From Fibrobacter sp. (GTDB taxonomy: Bacteria; Fibrobacterota; Fibrobacteria; Fibrobacterales; Fibrobacteraceae), in contig JAKSIF010000009.1 of assembly GCA_024398965.1 (NCBI GenBank), positions 25,581-89,580 of the forward strand: a stretch of 64,000 nucleotides of DNA, in the 5' to 3' direction. The notes beneath the pieces are model-generated. The model ran no database searches. It was not told the DNA's origin and saw only the letters and a program-made list of their open reading frames with translations. The translations under genes and the position numbers were made by a program. Shown one piece after another: positions 6,811 through 11,610 of this stretch (positions within the stretch are counted from its first letter, which is position 1; each line of letters starts with the position of its first letter).

Positions 6811-7872
6811 ATGGAAAAGAGAATCAAGGAACTGGATGTACTCCGTGTTGTGGCCATGCTGTTTGTGGTGACATACCACTTTGGCTGTGATTATGGTGCC
6901 AGGGAAATTCCTTTTTTCAATCTGTTCTGTACAACCCCCAATTATGACTTTGGAAATATTGCGGTAACAATCTTCCTTGTTCTTTCTGGTGGGTTGCTTT
7001 ATAAGAAGTACGGGAAATTTTTTGATGGAACAGGCTCTGTATCCTTGAAGGTTTTTTACTTGAAACGGGCCAGGTCCATTTATCCGCCTTTCTGGATTTT
7101 CAATCTCTACATTGTCCTTAGCATGGCCCGCCATTTCGTTTCGGATGGTTCGCCTTTCTATGCGGGAAATCCTGCGAAGCTATTGCTTACGGTGTTCGGC
7201 TTTGATGGAATCGCCCAGCGCCTGGGTTACGAAACCTACTTCTTCTGTGGCGAGTGGTTTGTTGGCGCCATTGTTGTTCTTTACCTGCTGTTTCCGCTGT
7301 TGGCAAGAATTTACCAAAAGGCTCCCGTGGTCTTGATGCTTGCGTTGGTTGTTCTGTATGGCCTTCAGTTCCTCCTGCTTGGCGAAAGCCTTTCTCTGAT
7401 TTGTATTTCTCCCGTTACCTGGGTGTTCAAGTTCTGTCTTGGCTTTGTCATCTTTGATCGTCTTGACGCTCTTAGAAATTGGCGCTTGGCGCTCGGTGCC
7501 CTGGCGTTGCTGCTGGCGCTGACCTTCGTTGACGTCCCCGGAATCCTGAATGAAGATTGCCTAGGGACGGTGGCGGCACTGGCCTGGTTTGTGGTGGTGT
7601 TTTACTGTTCTCCTTGGCTGTTGAAGTTCTCTGCAGTGGAATGGGTTGTGGCAAAGTTGGCTGTTCTTTCCTATTGCGTCTTCCTGGTTCAGCATGTGGT
7701 TATTTCCTGGAGCCAGATTGGATTTGTTAAGATTTTTGAAAAGATGCAGTGGCACTATTCCTCCTTGGTTACGCTTGTTCTCCTGATTGTTACCGTGGGA
7801 GTCATTGTTGCTGTTTCCTGGATTCTGAATATGCTGTCCAGTAAGGTGATTGGATTACTTGACCGCAAGTAG
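6811..7872 (+). CDS. Acyltransferase family 3 (OafA-like) membrane protein
   Basis: RIKELDVLRVVAMLFVVTYH, AVTIFLVLSG, FYLKRARSIYP, EWFVG motifs; about 10 hydrophobic segments. Confidence 0.88.
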   Translation: MEKRIKELDVLRVVAMLFVVTYHFGCDYGAREIPFFNLFCTTPNYDFGNIAVTIFLVLSGGLLYKKYGKFFDGTGSVSLKVFYLKRARSIYPPFWIFNLYIVLSMARHFVSDGSPFYAGNPAKLLLTVFGFDGIAQRLGYETYFFCGEWFVGAIVVLYLLFPLLARIYQKAPVVLMLALVVLYGLQFLLLGESLSLICISPVTWVFKFCLGFVIFDRLDALRNWRLALGALALLLALTFVDVPGILNEDCLGTVAALAWFVVVFYCSPWLLKFSAVEWVVAKLAVLSYCVFLVQHVVISWSQIGFVKIFEKMQWHYSSLVTLVLLIVTVGVIVAVSWILNMLSSKVIGLLDRK

Positions 7873-7891
7873 TTTTTCTATCTTGGATAAT

Positions 7892-9175
7892 ATGAACCTG
7901 AAAGGCAAAAAGATTCTCCTTGGTGTGTCTGGCGGTATTGCCGCCTACAAGTCCTGCGAACTTTTGCGATTGCTGCAAAAGAAGGGCGCCGAGGTTCGTG
8001 TTTGCATGACCGAGGCCGCTACCCAGTTTGTGGCGCCTCTGACTTTTGCTTCCTTGAGCAAGTGCCCGGTGTACCTGAAGAACGGTGCTCCCGAGGCTAG
8101 ACCCTTTCAGCATATCGATTTTCCCCGATGGGCCGATTTGTACCTGGTGGTGCCTGCCACAGCCAATGTGATAGGCAAGTTCGCCTTCGGAATCGCCGAC
8201 GATCCGGTAAGTCTTTGCTTTATGAGCTGCGATTGCCCGCGCTTTGTGGCGCCTGCCATGAATGTGGCCATGTATAATTCTCCTGCGGTAAAGCGTAATC
8301 TTGAAATGCTCCGCGGTTTTGAAATGACCCATGTGCTGGAATCTCCTGCGGGTTTCTTGGCTTGTGGCGAAGTGGGGCAGGGAAGGCTTTTGGAACCTGC
8401 GCAGATTGTTGAATATCTTGAAGAGTGTAAAGCGGAAAGCTTAAAGGTTAAAGGTTCCCGAGTTGAATCGCATTCTTTGCCCGAGGATACAATCGAAAAG
8501 AACGGTCGCCGCGTCCTCATCACTGCAGGCCGTACTGAAGAGGCTATCGATCCGGTCCGCTATATTTCCAACTGCAGCAGCGGAAAGACCGCTGTAGCCC
8601 TGTCTGCGGTATTCCTTGCCAACGGTTACGACGTAGAAGTTGTGGCTGGCCCTATGGAGGCCAAGTTCCCCGGTGGAGTCAAGGTGACGAAGGTGCGCAG
8701 CGCTTGCCAGATGCACGATGCCGTTTTGGAACGTCAGCCCGATGTCGATGTCCTTGTGCACTGTGCTGCGGTCGCTGATTACCGCCCGGCAAATCCTGCC
8801 GGCGAAAAAATCAAGGACAGCCGCAGTCAACTGACAATCGAGCTTGTGCCCAATCCAAACATCTTGAGGGATTGTTCCGCAGCTCGACGCATGGCCCGAG
8901 AAAATCAAGACGTAAATCAGCAGGCTCGCCTGGCGAACCAGATCATTATTGGGTTTGCCTTGGAAACAGACCATTTCGAAGAACATGCTGCAGAAAAGTT
9001 CCAGAAGTCCGGCGCCGACGCCCTTCTGTTGAATGCTCCCGTGGCAAGTGACAGCGGTTTTGGCTTTGACAATGTCCGTTACACCTTGGTAGAACACGGT
9101 AAGCCCATCGCCCCTATGGAGATGGGCAGCAAGATTTCTCTGGCAGAAACCATCGTTCGCTTTTGCTCTAAGTAG
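7892..9175 (+). CDS. coaBC: Bifunctional phosphopantothenoylcysteine decarboxylase/synthase
   Basis: ILLGVSGGIAAYK, VPATANVIGK, APAMNVAMY, LACGEVGQGRL, TAGRTEEAIDPVRYISN, AAVADYRP, GFALET. Confidence 0.95.
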   Translation: MNLKGKKILLGVSGGIAAYKSCELLRLLQKKGAEVRVCMTEAATQFVAPLTFASLSKCPVYLKNGAPEARPFQHIDFPRWADLYLVVPATANVIGKFAFGIADDPVSLCFMSCDCPRFVAPAMNVAMYNSPAVKRNLEMLRGFEMTHVLESPAGFLACGEVGQGRLLEPAQIVEYLEECKAESLKVKGSRVESHSLPEDTIEKNGRRVLITAGRTEEAIDPVRYISNCSSGKTAVALSAVFLANGYDVEVVAGPMEAKFPGGVKVTKVRSACQMHDAVLERQPDVDVLVHCAAVADYRPANPAGEKIKDSRSQLTIELVPNPNILRDCSAARRMARENQDVNQQARLANQIIIGFALETDHFEEHAAEKFQKSGADALLLNAPVASDSGFGFDNVRYTLVEHGKPIAPMEMGSKISLAETIVRFCSK

Positions 9176-9184
9176 AGGTTCCTG

Positions 9185-10114
9185 ATGTCCGACGAATACA
9201 ACTTTAGTGAACTTCGAAACTATCTGGAAGGCCAGATTGACTTGGGCGATGCCGAACTGTATCTTGATGAGCCCTGGTCTCCTCCGGTAAAGCGTGCTGC
9301 GGCTCCTGCAGCCATGTCCGCCCCCGCGATTCCTCGTCCGGCACCTCGTGTTATTCCGCCCCGTCCGGCGGCCAGTTCTTCCGTGGGCGCCTCCTTGAAT
9401 CCGCCTCCTCCTATGCCGGCGCCGTCTGCGGCTCCGCAGTCTGCAAATCCGCAGGATATTGTTTTCGAGGATCTGTTCGGTTCTCCGTCTGCACCGCCAA
9501 CTATGTCGGCTCCTGCAGCAGAGCCTTCTCAGGTCCTGCAGCCTATGGCAAGGGCTGTAAGCAATGCTGCCTACATGTCTGCCGATTCTCTGGATGTCTT
9601 CTTTGACACCGTCAAGTCTGAAACAATCTATGCTAAGGAAGCCTCCCTGGCGAAGTACCTCGGTCCAGCCAAGCCCCGTCTCTTGCTGCTTTTGCCTGCA
9701 GTAAAGCCGGGCGAAAATCCCGAAGCATTCTTTAGCAGTCCTGTTGGCGAAATGCTTGTTCGTTTGTTTGCAAACCTGGGCTATACTCAGGACCAAATGG
9801 GCGTTACCTATTTCTTCAAGTCCACGGATCGTCCGATAGCTCCGTTGATGGCTACTGCCCTCAAGAAGATGCTGACCAAGGAACTTTCTTTGATTTCTCC
9901 CGAAGTCATGGTGACCTTTGGCGTACCGCTGTTCCAGAATCTCTTTGGCAGGGCGAAGAATTTTGACGATCTTGCCGGTACGGATTTGGAAGTGGGCGGC
10001 ATCAAGACCTGCTCTCTCATAGATCCCTACGCCATGGTCAATGACAAACAGATGAAGTGGCTTACCTGGAAGGTGCACATTCCTCGTAGCACTTATTTTA
10101 CGGTCAAACAGTAA
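9185..10114 (+). CDS. Uracil-DNA glycosylase family-4-like fold protein, catalytic motifs degenerate
   Basis: N-terminal helix, Pro/Ala-rich linker, then a domain that aligns by eye with UDG-F4 secondary-structure spacing (PRLLLL, GEMLVRLFANLG, ELSLISPEVMVTFG, K-W-TW); position between coaBC and dnaB. Confidence 0.6.
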   Translation: MSDEYNFSELRNYLEGQIDLGDAELYLDEPWSPPVKRAAAPAAMSAPAIPRPAPRVIPPRPAASSSVGASLNPPPPMPAPSAAPQSANPQDIVFEDLFGSPSAPPTMSAPAAEPSQVLQPMARAVSNAAYMSADSLDVFFDTVKSETIYAKEASLAKYLGPAKPRLLLLLPAVKPGENPEAFFSSPVGEMLVRLFANLGYTQDQMGVTYFFKSTDRPIAPLMATALKKMLTKELSLISPEVMVTFGVPLFQNLFGRAKNFDDLAGTDLEVGGIKTCSLIDPYAMVNDKQMKWLTWKVHIPRSTYFTVKQ

Positions 10115-10140
10115 AAACGCCCTAGAATAGCGAATATGGG

Positions 10141-10166
10141 AGACCCTGTGAAAACGGGGTCTTTTT
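10141..10166 (+). terminator. Intrinsic terminator
   Basis: AGACCCTGT-gaaa-ACGGGGTCT plus T-run. Confidence 0.7.
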
Positions 10167-10197
10167 CATAAATTATATTTCCCTCGGATATTTATAT

Positions 10198-11610
10198 ATG
10201 GCAGATTTCGATAATCAGAATACGTATGAAGGTCGTCAGGTCCCTATGGACCTTGATGCCGAGCGTTGCTTGCTTGGCAGCATTTTGCGAGATCCTGAGG
10301 TCATGGGCGAAGCCATCATGGTCATCAAGGATGAATCCTTCTTCTATTTGGAGAAACACCAGCTGGTGTGGACCGCCCTTTGTAACCTAAATAGGTCGGT
10401 AACTCCCATTGACTTGGTAACCCTTGCCTCCGAACTGGAGTCCATGGGCAAGTTGACCCTGGTGGGAGGACGAGAATACTTGTTCGAGTTGATGGAATCC
10501 GTGGCGTCGTCTGCGAATACCAGTTGGCATATCGAGCTACTTCGCAAAAAGGCATCGCTTCGAAAGCTGATCAAGATGTCTTCGTCCATCATCAAGAATG
10601 CGATGGATTCTGCTGCGGCTCCCGACGAAGTCCTGCAAGATGCAGAAAGGGATATTTTCGCCATTGCCGATGACCAGGTTCGCGACTCCCTCAAGCCAAT
10701 CAACCAGTTTGTGAATCCCTTGTTGGAGCGTTTGAATAACCGCAAGGATGGCATTACCGGTATCCGTACCGGCATTACGGAATTGGATGAACTGACCAAC
10801 GGCTTGCAAAAGTCCGACCTGATTATTTTGGCTGCTCGTCCTGGTGTGGGTAAGACTTCTTTCGCCTTGACCATTGCTGCCAATGCGGCTATCAACTTTA
10901 ACCAGAATGTGGCCTTCTTTAGCTTGGAAATGGATGGTGTCCAGTTGGCTCAGCGTCTGCTGAGTTCCCAGGCCCAGATCGACCAGAGTAGGCTTCGCAA
11001 TGGTCGCCTGAATTCCGAGGAAAAGAAACGAATCATTGCTGCCGTAACCCCCATTAGCCAGGCTCCGTTATACGTAGATGACAATGCCGACCTTGGCATT
11101 ATGGAACTGATGAGCAAGGCTCGCCAGCTTAAGCGTAAGGGAAAGCTGGACCTTTTGATTATTGACTACCTGCAGTTGATGAAAACCGGTAAGGAAGAAA
11201 ACCGAGCCGTGGCCATCGGTGCGATTTCCCGTGGTCTTAAGATTCTGGCCAAGGAAATGCAGATTCCTGTTATTGCCCTGGCTCAGCTTTCCCGTAAGGT
11301 GGAAGAAAAGGGCCGTGAGCGCCCGCAGCTTTCCGACCTTCGTGAATCTGGTTCTATCGAACAGGACGCCGACATGGTGTGGTTTGTAGAACGTAAGTTC
11401 GTGCAGACCCACAGGGATGAAGACCGTAACTCTGCTGAACTGATTGTTGCAAAGCATCGTAATGGTTCTGTGAAGGACATTTCCATGACCTTCATTCCGG
11501 AATACACAACCTTCTATGACGCAGCACCGGAGGGTGAGGGTGGGGAAGGTGAAGCCTATGCCTACGACGGTGGTGCTGATATGGGCCCCGCGGATTTTGC
11601 AGACTTTTAA
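10198..11610 (+). CDS. dnaB: Replicative DNA helicase
   Basis: AERCLLGSIL, ILAARPGVGKT, FFSLEM, IIDYLQLM, LAQLSRKVE, RPQLSDLRESGSIEQDAD, IVAKHRNG. Confidence 0.98.
   Translation: MADFDNQNTYEGRQVPMDLDAERCLLGSILRDPEVMGEAIMVIKDESFFYLEKHQLVWTALCNLNRSVTPIDLVTLASELESMGKLTLVGGREYLFELMESVASSANTSWHIELLRKKASLRKLIKMSSSIIKNAMDSAAAPDEVLQDAERDIFAIADDQVRDSLKPINQFVNPLLERLNNRKDGITGIRTGITELDELTNGLQKSDLIILAARPGVGKTSFALTIAANAAINFNQNVAFFSLEMDGVQLAQRLLSSQAQIDQSRLRNGRLNSEEKKRIIAAVTPISQAPLYVDDNADLGIMELMSKARQLKRKGKLDLLIIDYLQLMKTGKEENRAVAIGAISRGLKILAKEMQIPVIALAQLSRKVEEKGRERPQLSDLRESGSIEQDADMVWFVERKFVQTHRDEDRNSAELIVAKHRNGSVKDISMTFIPEYTTFYDAAPEGEGGEGEAYAYDGGADMGPADFADF

What the first reader, a model, noticed from the sequence alone, without database searches (positions are those of the whole stretch)
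9185..10114. Probable UDG family-4 pseudoenzyme retained between coaBC and dnaB
The C-terminal 180 aa follow the family-4 uracil-DNA glycosylase layout, but every functional residue is replaced. GEAPG reads LPAVK, the TN..KC Asn reads Y (VTYFFKS), the Fe-S cluster cysteines are absent, and the HP motif reads DP (LIDPYAM). Structural residues (ELSLISPEVMVTFG, K-W-TW) and the N-terminal helix plus Pro/Ala linker are kept. An intact ORF with host-like codons argues for selection on a non-catalytic role, such as DNA binding or a replisome/DnaB partner (inference).
Basis: partly seen in the sequence, partly recalled or inferred. Interest (0 to 1): 0.62.

Follow-up and report, generated by a model that had tools for sequence, protein, structure and literature searches.

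The report
Conserved catalytically dead UDG-fold protein
A Fibrobacter gene encodes a protein shaped like a uracil-removing DNA repair enzyme that has lost every residue needed for that job, yet has been kept under strong selection across its bacterial family, always just after the coenzyme-A gene coaBC, so it must now do something else.

Summary
Observation confirmed. ORF 9185-10114 (+, 309 aa) of a Fibrobacter genome has three parts: an acidic N-terminal helix (residues 1-31), a Pro/Ala-rich disordered linker, and a C-terminal domain. The domain folds as a family-4 uracil-DNA glycosylase (Foldseek: top 36 PDB hits all family-4 UDG/UdgX, E about 1e-10, TM 0.63-0.71). Motif A Glu, the uracil-reading Asn (Tyr209), motif B His (Asp280) and all four Fe-S cysteines are replaced.

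It is not decaying. It was found in 76 of 77 Fibrobacteraceae genomes searched, and 43 of 43 full-length orthologues are intact. dN/dS is 0.07 (N-terminal peptide) and 0.12 (domain), like coaBC and dnaB.

New here: fully canonical enzymes with the same three-part architecture exist in Myxococcota, and they also sit just downstream of coaBC. So this is a degenerate offshoot of a "long-form", coaBC-linked UDG subfamily. The old linkage is to coaBC (9-nt gap, coupled), not dnaB. A terminator separates it from dnaB in this window, and one Fibrobacter clade has lost the dnaB adjacency.

The pseudoenzyme reading is supported. The DnaB-partner idea is neither supported nor excluded. Earlier notes in this scan flagged similar degenerate coaBC-coupled UDG-like ORFs on other genomes (unchecked). 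I found no published description. Function is inferred, not shown.

The parts
9185..10114 (+). Whole ORF: 309-aa degenerate long-form family-4 UDG homologue
   Evidence: ORF list. 560+ cluster representatives in Fibrobacter. 76/77 Fibrobacteraceae genomes searched have it. 43/43 full-length orthologues are intact.
9185..9277 (+). N-terminal acidic helix peptide (residues 1-31, consensus FSELRNYLxGQxDLGxAELxLDEPW; net charge -8)
   Evidence: Most conserved part of the protein, dN/dS 0.07. Invariant columns. Shared with canonical long-form UDGs of Myxococcota. Modelled as a helix over residues 8-20. Charge.
9278..9541 (+). Pro/Ala-rich disordered linker (residues 32-119), with a short Phe-centred island (EDLFG, residues 95-99)
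   Evidence: pLDDT below about 55. Variable in length and sequence, dN/dS 0.25-0.31. 48% P+A. An island of the type [SD][LIM]FG, SAFG or IFD recurs in most species.
9542..10111 (+). UDG-fold domain (residues 120-309) with degenerate motifs: L170-P171-A-V-K174-P-G (motif A), Y209/K212/S213 (TN..KC), L226 (4th Cys), D280-P-Y (motif B), and a clade-specific C-terminal TWKxHIPRSxxF tail
   Evidence: AF2 pLDDT 92-98. Foldseek top 36 hits are all family-4 UDG/UdgX, TM 0.63-0.71. Motif mapping. dN/dS 0.12.
9173..9187 (+). coaBC stop (TAG 9173-9175) / Shine-Dalgarno-like AGAGG (9174-9178) / ATG (9185): translational-coupling junction
   Evidence: Sequence. The same tight junction or an ORF overlap is present in all orthologous loci with an upstream flank.
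7850..9175 (+). coaBC (Flavoprotein + DFP domains), the conserved upstream partner gene
   Evidence: Pfam E = 5e-53 and 3e-31. Adjacent in all Fibrobacterota loci and upstream in Myxococcaceae.
10135..10170 (+). Intrinsic-terminator-like hairpin (GC-rich stem, GAAA loop) followed by a U-run, between the ORF and dnaB
   Evidence: RNA fold -20.2 kcal/mol, z = -3.7, 0 of 200 shuffles fold as well. Present only in some Fibrobacter clades.
10198..11610 (+). dnaB replicative helicase, the downstream neighbour
   Evidence: Pfam DnaB_C E = 4e-98. Follows the gene in most Fibrobacterota loci but not in the clade of L010-L016, L019 and L048.

Best explanation
The ORF encodes a non-catalytic descendant (pseudoenzyme) of a 'long-form' family-4 uracil-DNA glycosylase. 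Long-form enzymes have three parts: an acidic N-terminal helix of about 30 aa, a flexible Pro/Ala-rich tether, and an Fe-S UDG domain. They are encoded directly downstream of coaBC. In the Fibrobacterota lineage the domain lost the Fe-S cluster ligands, the motif A Glu and the uracil-reading Asn. In Fibrobacteraceae it also lost the motif B His, so it can no longer recognise or excise uracil by the UDG mechanism. A canonical family-1 Ung elsewhere in the genome covers that job. What selection still preserves is the fold, a mildly basic domain surface, the N-terminal acidic peptide (the most constrained part) and co-translation with CoaBC. Shown: fold, homology, motif loss, conservation, purifying selection and operon structure. 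Inferred: the protein acts by binding rather than by catalysis. The UDG-fold domain would bind DNA or a DNA-maintenance partner, with the former base pocket occupied by an aromatic residue (Tyr/Trp/Phe at the Asn position across the family). The tethered acidic N-terminal helix would dock onto the same partner that its active relatives use, or fold back on the domain's basic face as an autoinhibitory DNA mimic. The precedent is UDG-fold modules used as non-enzymatic replication accessories (vaccinia D4 with A20; UDG-like N-terminal domains of SPO1- and T5-type polymerases).
For: - Fold: two independent AF2 models, one built without any canonical UDG in the alignment, both hit only family-4 UDG/UdgX at the top.
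- Homology: phmmer to 1ui0 E = 7e-4. hhalign to canonical long forms 86%, E = 4.8e-6. The deep profile search shows a continuum from degenerate to canonical proteins with the same architecture.
- Motif loss: judged against the family-4 definitions in PMC10359453 (GE(A/G)PG, the TN Asn, HPS..R) and the Fe-S cluster cited in PMC9266487.
- Selection: present in 76/77 Fibrobacteraceae genomes and 50/50 of the genus. 43/43 orthologues intact. dN/dS 0.07 for the N-terminal peptide and 0.12 for the domain, against 0.12 for coaBC and dnaB.
- No new conserved catalytic set: across Fibrobacteraceae genera motif B reads DP, EP, SA or SL and the motif A region varies freely, while the Asn position is always aromatic.
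- Redundancy: the genome has a canonical Ung with GQDPYH and HPSPLS.
- Operon: a 9-nt gap with a Shine-Dalgarno sequence overlapping the coaBC stop, universal in the loci read.
- Charge: domain pI of about 8-9, like the active enzymes; N-terminal peptide net -8.
- Precedents: PMC3201878.
Against: Within the genus, the residues that replaced the catalytic ones (K174, Y209, D280, Y282, N286) are invariant, which could also mean a new active site or ligand pocket. His-to-Asp at motif B recurs in unrelated lineages, hinting at a functional rather than merely tolerated change. Relatives outside Fibrobacteraceae keep the HP histidine and the stacking Phe, so they may retain some glycosylase activity. 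DNA binding is inferred only from fold and charge. The partner of the N-terminal peptide is unknown.
Confidence: 0.62

Rival explanations
1. Neo-functionalised enzyme. The domain is still a glycosylase, or another hydrolase or ligand-binding enzyme, that uses a new residue set (for example D280, K174, Y209) to act on a substrate other than uracil, such as a positively charged alkylated base or a modified cytosine, for which an Asp in place of the leaving-group-stabilising His would make chemical sense.
For: The replaced positions are invariant within the genus (K174, Y209, D280-P281-Y282, N286). The stacking Phe (F182/F183) and K212 are retained. Motif B His-to-Asp recurs in separate lineages, including P0192, which keeps CxxC and AEAPG. 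UDG-superfamily families with non-canonical motif A are active (families 2 and 5; general knowledge, and PMC10359453 for motif variety).
Against: At the family level the candidate residues are not conserved. Motif B reads DP, EP, SA or SL and the motif A stretch is free to vary in other Fibrobacteraceae genera that keep the gene under the same synteny. All four Fe-S ligands are gone. Pfam and TIGR00758 scores are far below their cut-offs.
Confidence: 0.15
2. Dedicated DnaB/replisome accessory. The protein binds DnaB or another replisome component and acts at the fork, for example as a tether or processivity-type factor.
For: The coaBC-X-dnaB-mlaE-mlaF order is conserved across several families of the class and on an unplaced contig carrying a degenerate homologue. 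In several Fibrobacter clades only about 25-35 nt separate X from dnaB. The Phe-centred linker island resembles the end of the beta-clamp motif QL[SD]LF (the resemblance rests on my own knowledge). Precedents exist in viral UDG-fold replication accessories (PMC3201878).
Against: A strong terminator lies before dnaB in this window. dnaB is replaced by a hexapeptide transferase downstream in one Fibrobacter clade, with no change in the protein. Canonical relatives with the same N-terminal peptide have no dnaB nearby. No X-DnaB fusion exists; the apparent 731-aa frame in L077 is an artefact. DciA is present. The linker island is not a strict motif.
Confidence: 0.13
3. CoaBC-associated factor. The protein works with CoaBC, for example as a regulatory or assembly subunit, or by binding a pyrimidine-nucleotide ligand related to the CTP-dependent CoaB reaction in the former uracil pocket.
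For: Translational coupling to coaBC is universal in Fibrobacter. coaBC adjacency is the only linkage shared with Myxococcota. Earlier scan notes report the same junction in other phyla (unchecked).
Against: The fully canonical, presumably DNA-acting, enzymes show the same adjacency, so the linkage does not require a CoA-related role. E. coli coaBC-dut is a similar operon without a known physical link (own knowledge). The pocket residues are not conserved across the family.
Confidence: 0.08
4. Decaying pseudogene or spurious ORF with no function.
For: Catalytic residues are lost. It evolves faster than its neighbours (50-70% identity vs 70-98%).
Against: All 43 full-length orthologues are intact. 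It is present in 76/77 family genomes. dN/dS is 0.07-0.12 in the ordered parts. Codon usage is host-like.
Confidence: 0.02

Closest known systems
Family-4 uracil-DNA glycosylase (UdgA; Thermus thermophilus 1ui0/1ui1, Thermotoga maritima 1l9g/1vk2, Sulfolobus tokodaii 4zby) and UdgX (6ail)
   Same: Same alpha/beta/alpha fold (TM 0.63-0.71, RMSD about 3.3 A over about 180 residues). Detectable sequence homology. Retains the stacking Phe, the Lys of VKC, the central beta-strands and the C-terminal K...W.
   Different: No 4Fe-4S ligands, no motif A Glu, Tyr in place of the uracil-reading Asn, and Asp in place of the motif B His. Scores below the Pfam and TIGR00758 thresholds. Carries an N-terminal peptide plus a linker of about 90 aa that the solved short forms lack.
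Long-form family-4 UDGs of Myxococcota (e.g. Stigmatella aurantiaca CP002271, Myxococcus hansupus CP012109; annotated 'uracil-DNA glycosylase' or 'DNA polymerase')
   Same: Same three-part architecture (N-terminal helix motif, Pro/Ala linker, UDG domain), similar length (about 310-340 aa), and the same position downstream of coaBC on the same strand.
   Different: They keep CxxC...C...C, GE(A/G)PG, TN..KC and HP, so they are presumably active. dnaB is not adjacent. Identity to the window protein is about 20%.
Non-catalytic use of UDG-fold modules in replication: vaccinia D4 (with A20) and UDG-like N-terminal domains of SPO1/T5-type family-A polymerases (PMC3201878; see also 9qhs and PMC13697223 for active fused UDGs)
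   Same: A UDG fold used, or proposed to be used, as a DNA-binding or processivity accessory independent of base excision.
   Different: Those are viral, and are either still catalytically competent (D4, phiLo) or fused to a polymerase. This one is a free-standing cellular protein with every catalytic residue replaced and no polymerase link.
E. coli dfp(coaBC)-dut operon (own knowledge, not tested here)
   Same: coaBC is followed in the same operon by a gene of uracil-in-DNA hygiene.
   Different: The downstream gene there is dUTPase, an unrelated fold and an active enzyme.

Membership tests
Family-4 UDG (UdgA, TIGR00758 / Pfam PF03167) | UDG-superfamily alpha/beta/alpha fold | tested here: met
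   Foldseek top 36 PDB hits are all family-4 UDG/UdgX, E = 1.6e-10, TM on target 0.63-0.71. The same ranking came from a model built without canonical sequences.
Family-4 UDG (UdgA, TIGR00758 / Pfam PF03167) | Score above curated profile thresholds | tested here: not met
   PF03167 17.6 bits vs cut-off 24.3. TIGR00758 11.6 bits vs 125.3.
Family-4 UDG (UdgA, TIGR00758 / Pfam PF03167) | Motif A GE(A/G)PG with the Glu (PMC10359453) | tested here: not met
   The Glu aligns to V173 or P171. The family consensus is LLPAVKPG, with no acidic residue at that position in any register.
Family-4 UDG (UdgA, TIGR00758 / Pfam PF03167) | Uracil-reading Asn in the TN(A/I)V.KC segment (PMC10359453) | tested here: not met
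   Tth N80 aligns to Y209, which is invariant in the genus and Tyr/Trp/Phe across Fibrobacteraceae.
Family-4 UDG (UdgA, TIGR00758 / Pfam PF03167) | Motif B HPS(S/A)(L/V)(L/V)R with the His and Arg (PMC10359453) | tested here: not met
   Tth H155 aligns to D280. The segment reads DPYAMVN, with no Arg.
Family-4 UDG (UdgA, TIGR00758 / Pfam PF03167) | Four Cys ligands of the 4Fe-4S cluster (Hinks et al. 2002, cited in PMC9266487) | tested here: not met
   0 of 4 are present. The CxxC region has no Cys, the third position is S213 and the fourth is L226.
Family-4 UDG (UdgA, TIGR00758 / Pfam PF03167) | Uracil excision activity | not testable with these tools
   Needs a biochemical assay.
Long-form, coaBC-linked UDG-F4 subfamily (defined in this report, not a curated family) | N-terminal L..YL..Q.(E/D)hG..E...(D)EP helix peptide, followed by a low-complexity linker, followed by a UDG domain | tested here: met
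   Alignment with Myxococcota long forms. The Fibrobacter profile matches them from profile position about 7-12 onward.
Long-form, coaBC-linked UDG-F4 subfamily (defined in this report, not a curated family) | Encoded immediately downstream of coaBC on the same strand | tested here: met
   Window, Fibrobacterota loci and 4 of 4 Myxococcaceae loci, two of them with one small gene inserted.
Pseudoenzyme (general definition) | Homologue of an enzyme, lacking catalytic residues, yet maintained by purifying selection | tested here: met
   Homology, residue loss, dN/dS 0.07-0.12, intact in 43/43 orthologues and present in 76/77 genomes. Loss of activity itself is inferred.
Beta-clamp-binding proteins (QL[SD]LF-type motif) | Conserved clamp-binding pentapeptide in a flexible region | tested here: inconclusive
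   The linker island (EDLFG, PSLFG, QNIFG, SGLFG) is seen in about half of the species, and weaker forms (SAFG, IFD) in others. There is no conserved Gln. Binding was not tested.

The most novel reading that the evidence does not exclude
Long-form UDG-F4 proteins are a widespread, unrecognised class of coaBC-operon DNA-maintenance factors whose real business end is the tethered acidic N-terminal peptide. On this reading, catalysis has been lost repeatedly in different lineages (Fibrobacterota, and the lineages of P0184, P0188, P0173 and P0186) while the tether and fold are kept. The fold would then serve as a non-enzymatic DNA or lesion reader, or as a replisome adaptor, in free-living bacteria: a cellular counterpart of the poxvirus D4-type accessory role, sitting next to dnaB.
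Probability: 0.2. Interest if true: 0.75.

Novelty: new variant of a known kind. Interest (0 to 1): 0.55.

Why it matters
UDG-superfamily proteins are textbook repair enzymes, and free-standing cellular members that have lost all catalytic and cofactor residues yet are kept across a bacterial family have not, to my knowledge, been described. None turned up in the literature searches run here. Three things follow. First, these proteins are annotated as "hypothetical protein" or, wrongly, as "uracil-DNA glycosylase", so repair capacity inferred from annotation is overstated. Second, the conserved N-terminal peptide shared with active enzymes points to an unknown partner or regulatory mechanism for a whole subfamily of bacterial UDGs. 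Third, the recurrent coaBC-UDG operon, like coaBC-dut in enterobacteria, poses a testable question about why coenzyme-A biosynthesis is co-expressed with uracil-in-DNA control. Fibrobacter is a major fibre degrader of the rumen and hindgut, so near-universal unknown genes in it are worth resolving.

Tried and rejected
1. Missing helicase loader. I asked whether the genome lacks a DnaB operator, which would make a conserved unknown gene upstream of dnaB a candidate. Rejected: DciA (PF05258) is present, 58 bits.
2. X-DnaB fusion as Rosetta-stone evidence. The 731-aa open frame in L077 is a spurious high-GC frame overlapping coaBC. The real gene ends 16 nt before dnaB.
3. Decay or pseudogene. Rejected by intactness and dN/dS.
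4. Strict beta-clamp motif in the linker. The island is too variable to call.
6. Widening the Myxococcota synteny survey with the genome search. The Stigmatella genome is not held, so I sampled four loci by direct look-up instead. One look-up (P0315) found nothing.
7. Taxonomic names for intermediate and degenerate singletons. The listing of cluster members gave no organism names, and P0188 is a singleton.
8. The profile search of A1 against PDB was no more sensitive than the single sequence.
9. Literature searches for Fibrobacter gene essentiality, and for any paper linking UDG with coaBC, found nothing relevant.
10. Model coordinates are not exposed, so pocket geometry and surface conservation could not be mapped.
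Full report
**The object.** The window holds an intact ORF at 9185..10114 on the + strand (309 aa, ATG start), flanked by coaBC (7850..9175; Pfam Flavoprotein + DFP) and dnaB (10198..11610; DnaB + DnaB_C). Names attached to close homologues and to the loci retrieved place the genome in Fibrobacter.

**Is it UDG-like?** By sequence alone the link is weak but specific. Pfam UDG (PF03167) scores 17.6 bits against a cut-off of 24.3. TIGR00758 (family 4) gives E = 0.17. phmmer against PDB sequences finds Thermus thermophilus family-4 UDG 1ui0 at E = 6.8e-4 and Sulfolobus tokodaii 4zbx at E = 0.04.

Structure prediction settles it:
- An AlphaFold2 model built only from 30 Fibrobacter orthologues (core pLDDT 65-83) hits family-4 UDG and UdgX structures in its top 36 places (E about 5e-9), followed by Mug and TDG.
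- A second model from a deeper alignment has pLDDT 92-98 across residues 130-300. It gives the same ranking, with E = 1.6e-10, TM on target 0.63-0.71 and RMSD about 3.3 A over about 180 residues.
- A profile-profile comparison of the Fibrobacter family against canonical long-form enzymes gives 86% probability, E = 4.8e-6, over 137 columns.

**Are the functional residues gone?** The family-4 definition comes from PMC10359453 (motif A GE(A/G)PG; the Asn of the TN segment and the motif B His, which hydrogen-bond uracil; motif B HPS(S/A)(L/V)(L/V)R), together with the 4Fe-4S cluster cited in PMC9266487. Every item fails:
- **Motif A Glu** aligns to V173 or P171. No register places an acidic residue there.
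- **The Asn** (Tth N80) aligns to Y209.
- **The motif B His** (Tth H155) aligns to D280.
- **The four cluster cysteines** align to non-Cys residues: the CxxC region has no Cys, the third is S213 and the fourth is L226.
- **Retained:** the stacking Phe (F182/F183), the Lys of VKC (K212), the central strands and the C-terminal K291...W295.

**Is it maintained?**
- The family has more than 560 cluster representatives at 50-60% identity.
- A profile search of 201 Fibrobacterota genomes finds it in 76 of 77 genomes of the same family, and in 50 of 50 of the same genus.
- All 43 full-length orthologues from species-representative genomes are intact.
- Pairwise Nei-Gojobori dN/dS is 0.07 for the N-terminal 31 residues, 0.12 for the domain and 0.25-0.31 for the linker.
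- On a matched set of pairs the whole gene gives 0.17, against 0.12 for coaBC, 0.12 for dnaB and 0.05 for mlaE. dS is near saturation for many pairs, so these ratios are approximate.
- Codon usage matches the neighbours.

Neutral decay is excluded. The genome also has a canonical family-1 Ung (GQDPYH and HPSPLS), so uracil repair does not depend on this gene.

**Where does it come from?** A profile search of 1.84 billion representative proteins returns only 102 hits at E of 1e-3 or better, and they form a gradient. The nearest are Fibrobacterota proteins. The farthest (for example P0190 and P0209) score strongly against Pfam UDG (up to E = 3.5e-39), carry every canonical motif, and share the same three-part architecture: an N-terminal "L..YL..Q.ELG..E...DEP" helix, a Pro/Ala-rich linker and the UDG domain.

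Those canonical long forms belong to Myxococcota (Stigmatella, Myxococcus, Archangium, Hyalangium). In 4 of 4 loci read they lie downstream of coaBC on the same strand, directly in two cases and with one small opposite-strand gene inserted in the other two. dnaB is not nearby.

Within Fibrobacterota, other families of the same class and order keep coaBC-X-dnaB-mlaE-mlaF. Their X has already lost the cysteines, the motif A Glu and the Asn, but it keeps the motif B "YHP". Fibrobacteraceae then lost the His as well.

Partly degenerate states exist elsewhere:
- P0199 keeps GEAPG and HP but has Asn-to-Tyr and no CxxC.
- P0192 keeps CxxC but has Asn-to-His and His-to-Asp.
- P0188 is fully degenerate, and its contig again reads coaBC-X-dnaB.

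The window protein is thus a degenerate offshoot of a coaBC-linked long-form UDG subfamily, and the N-terminal helix and linker are inherited, not new.

**Operon structure.** Nine nucleotides separate the coaBC stop (TAG 9173-9175) from the ATG, and an AGAGG overlaps the stop. Every orthologous locus with an upstream flank shows the same tight junction or an ORF overlap.

Downstream, a GC-rich hairpin with a GAAA loop and a U-run (10135-10170; -20.2 kcal/mol, z = -3.7) precedes dnaB. The consensus scan did not list it. This terminator occurs in some Fibrobacter clades. In others dnaB starts 25-35 nt after the stop, and in a third clade a hexapeptide-repeat transferase follows instead and dnaB is not within 4 kb.

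The linkage that is both oldest and tightest is therefore to coaBC. From my own knowledge, E. coli has an analogous coaBC(dfp)-dut operon. Earlier notes of this scan report coaBC-udg junctions in Acidobacteria and in a Lake Baikal bacterium, and three unchecked first-reader notes describe degenerate coaBC-coupled UDG-like ORFs on other genomes. I treat these as leads only.

**What does it do?** Nothing here shows function directly. The following constrains it:
- The most strongly conserved element is the acidic N-terminal peptide (net charge -8 over 31 residues), which active relatives share.
- The domain remains mildly basic (pI 8-9), like active enzymes.
- Within the genus the substituted positions (K174, Y209, D280, Y282, N286) are invariant. 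Across Fibrobacteraceae genera, however, motif B reads DP, EP, SA or SL and the motif A stretch varies freely. Only an aromatic residue (Tyr/Trp/Phe) at the Asn position is constant. That argues against a new conserved catalytic constellation and for a filled pocket.
- A clade-specific C-terminal tail (TW[KN]..[IL]P[RK][SC]G[FW]F) replaces the canonical terminal helix motif.
- The linker carries a short Phe-centred island in most species that resembles the end of the beta-clamp motif but is not strict.

My best reading, at about 0.6, is a binding protein rather than an enzyme. The UDG fold would act as a DNA- or partner-binding module. The tethered acidic helix would act as the docking or autoinhibitory element it already was in the active ancestors. 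Precedents for non-enzymatic use of the UDG fold in replication exist in viruses: vaccinia D4 with A20, and the proposed processivity role of UDG-like domains in SPO1/T5 polymerases (PMC3201878).

Rivals:
- **A neo-functionalised glycosylase (0.15).** Kept alive by the genus-level invariance of the new residues and the recurrent His-to-Asp change.
- **A specific DnaB/replisome partner (0.13).** Supported only by class-wide synteny. Weakened by the terminator, the clade that lost the adjacency, the Myxococcota context, the absence of fusions and the presence of DciA.
- **A CoaBC-associated role (0.08).**
- **Decay (0.02).**

**Limits.**
- No access to model coordinates, so surface and pocket mapping were not possible.
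- No taxonomic names for several intermediate sequences.
- The Myxococcota sample is one family.
- The second model's alignment contained canonical UDGs.
- Literature searches cover open-access text only. They found no description of this protein family or of the coaBC link.

**Verdict.** The finding is real and the pseudoenzyme interpretation is supported. The proposed DnaB partnership is speculative, and the better-supported association is with coaBC and with an inherited N-terminal tether. I rate it a new variant of a known kind, of moderate interest.

Noticed in passing
window 7850-10114; L079:4672-6972; L082:1668-4520; L083:2101-4472; L078:3684-6987; L084:2-1529: The coaBC-then-UDG-F4 gene order recurs in two phyla (Fibrobacterota and Myxococcota) and on an unplaced metagenome contig. 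Earlier scan notes report it in Acidobacteria and in a Lake Baikal bacterium. It parallels the coaBC(dfp)-dut operon of E. coli (own knowledge). I know of no explanation for why CoA synthesis is co-encoded with uracil-in-DNA genes.
   Followed up: partly
window 10135-10170: Strong hairpin (GAAA loop) plus U-run directly after the ORF's stop codon. It looks like an intrinsic terminator and was missed by the consensus scan. It is conserved only in some Fibrobacter clades.
   Followed up: yes
P0192, P0184, P0188 and window residue D280 (alignment A2): The motif B His is replaced by Asp in several apparently separate lineages. One of them (P0192) still has the CxxC cysteines and an AEAPG motif A, so the His-to-Asp change may be functional rather than simple decay.
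   Followed up: no
L013:4959-5594 (also L010-L012, L015, L016, L019, L048): In one Fibrobacter clade a hexapeptide-repeat acyltransferase gene starts 8 nt after the UDG-like gene and dnaB is no longer adjacent, while the UDG-like protein is unchanged.
   Followed up: partly
window 9467-9481 (residues 95-99, EDLFG) and the equivalent linker positions in L002-L048: A short Phe-centred island ([SD][LIM]FG, SAFG, IFD) recurs in the otherwise free-evolving Pro/Ala linker. It is a candidate short linear motif that loosely resembles the end of the beta-clamp-binding motif.
   Followed up: partly
window 6811-7872: The acyltransferase-3 family membrane protein between rpsA and coaBC is present in only about half of the orthologous Fibrobacter loci and is far more divergent (47-62% identity) than its neighbours. 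It looks like a variable insertion in an otherwise fixed housekeeping cluster.
   Followed up: no
window 8441-10078, minus strand: A 545-aa open frame runs antisense to the end of coaBC and most of the UDG-like gene. It is Arg/Gly-rich and probably a by-product of the sense-strand codon bias. Not examined.
   Followed up: no
L077:470-2515: In a high-GC Fibrobacterota relative, a 681-aa frame (731 aa as an open frame) spans coaBC in a shifted frame and runs into the UDG-like gene. It mimics a fusion in six-frame searches but is an artefact.
   Followed up: yes
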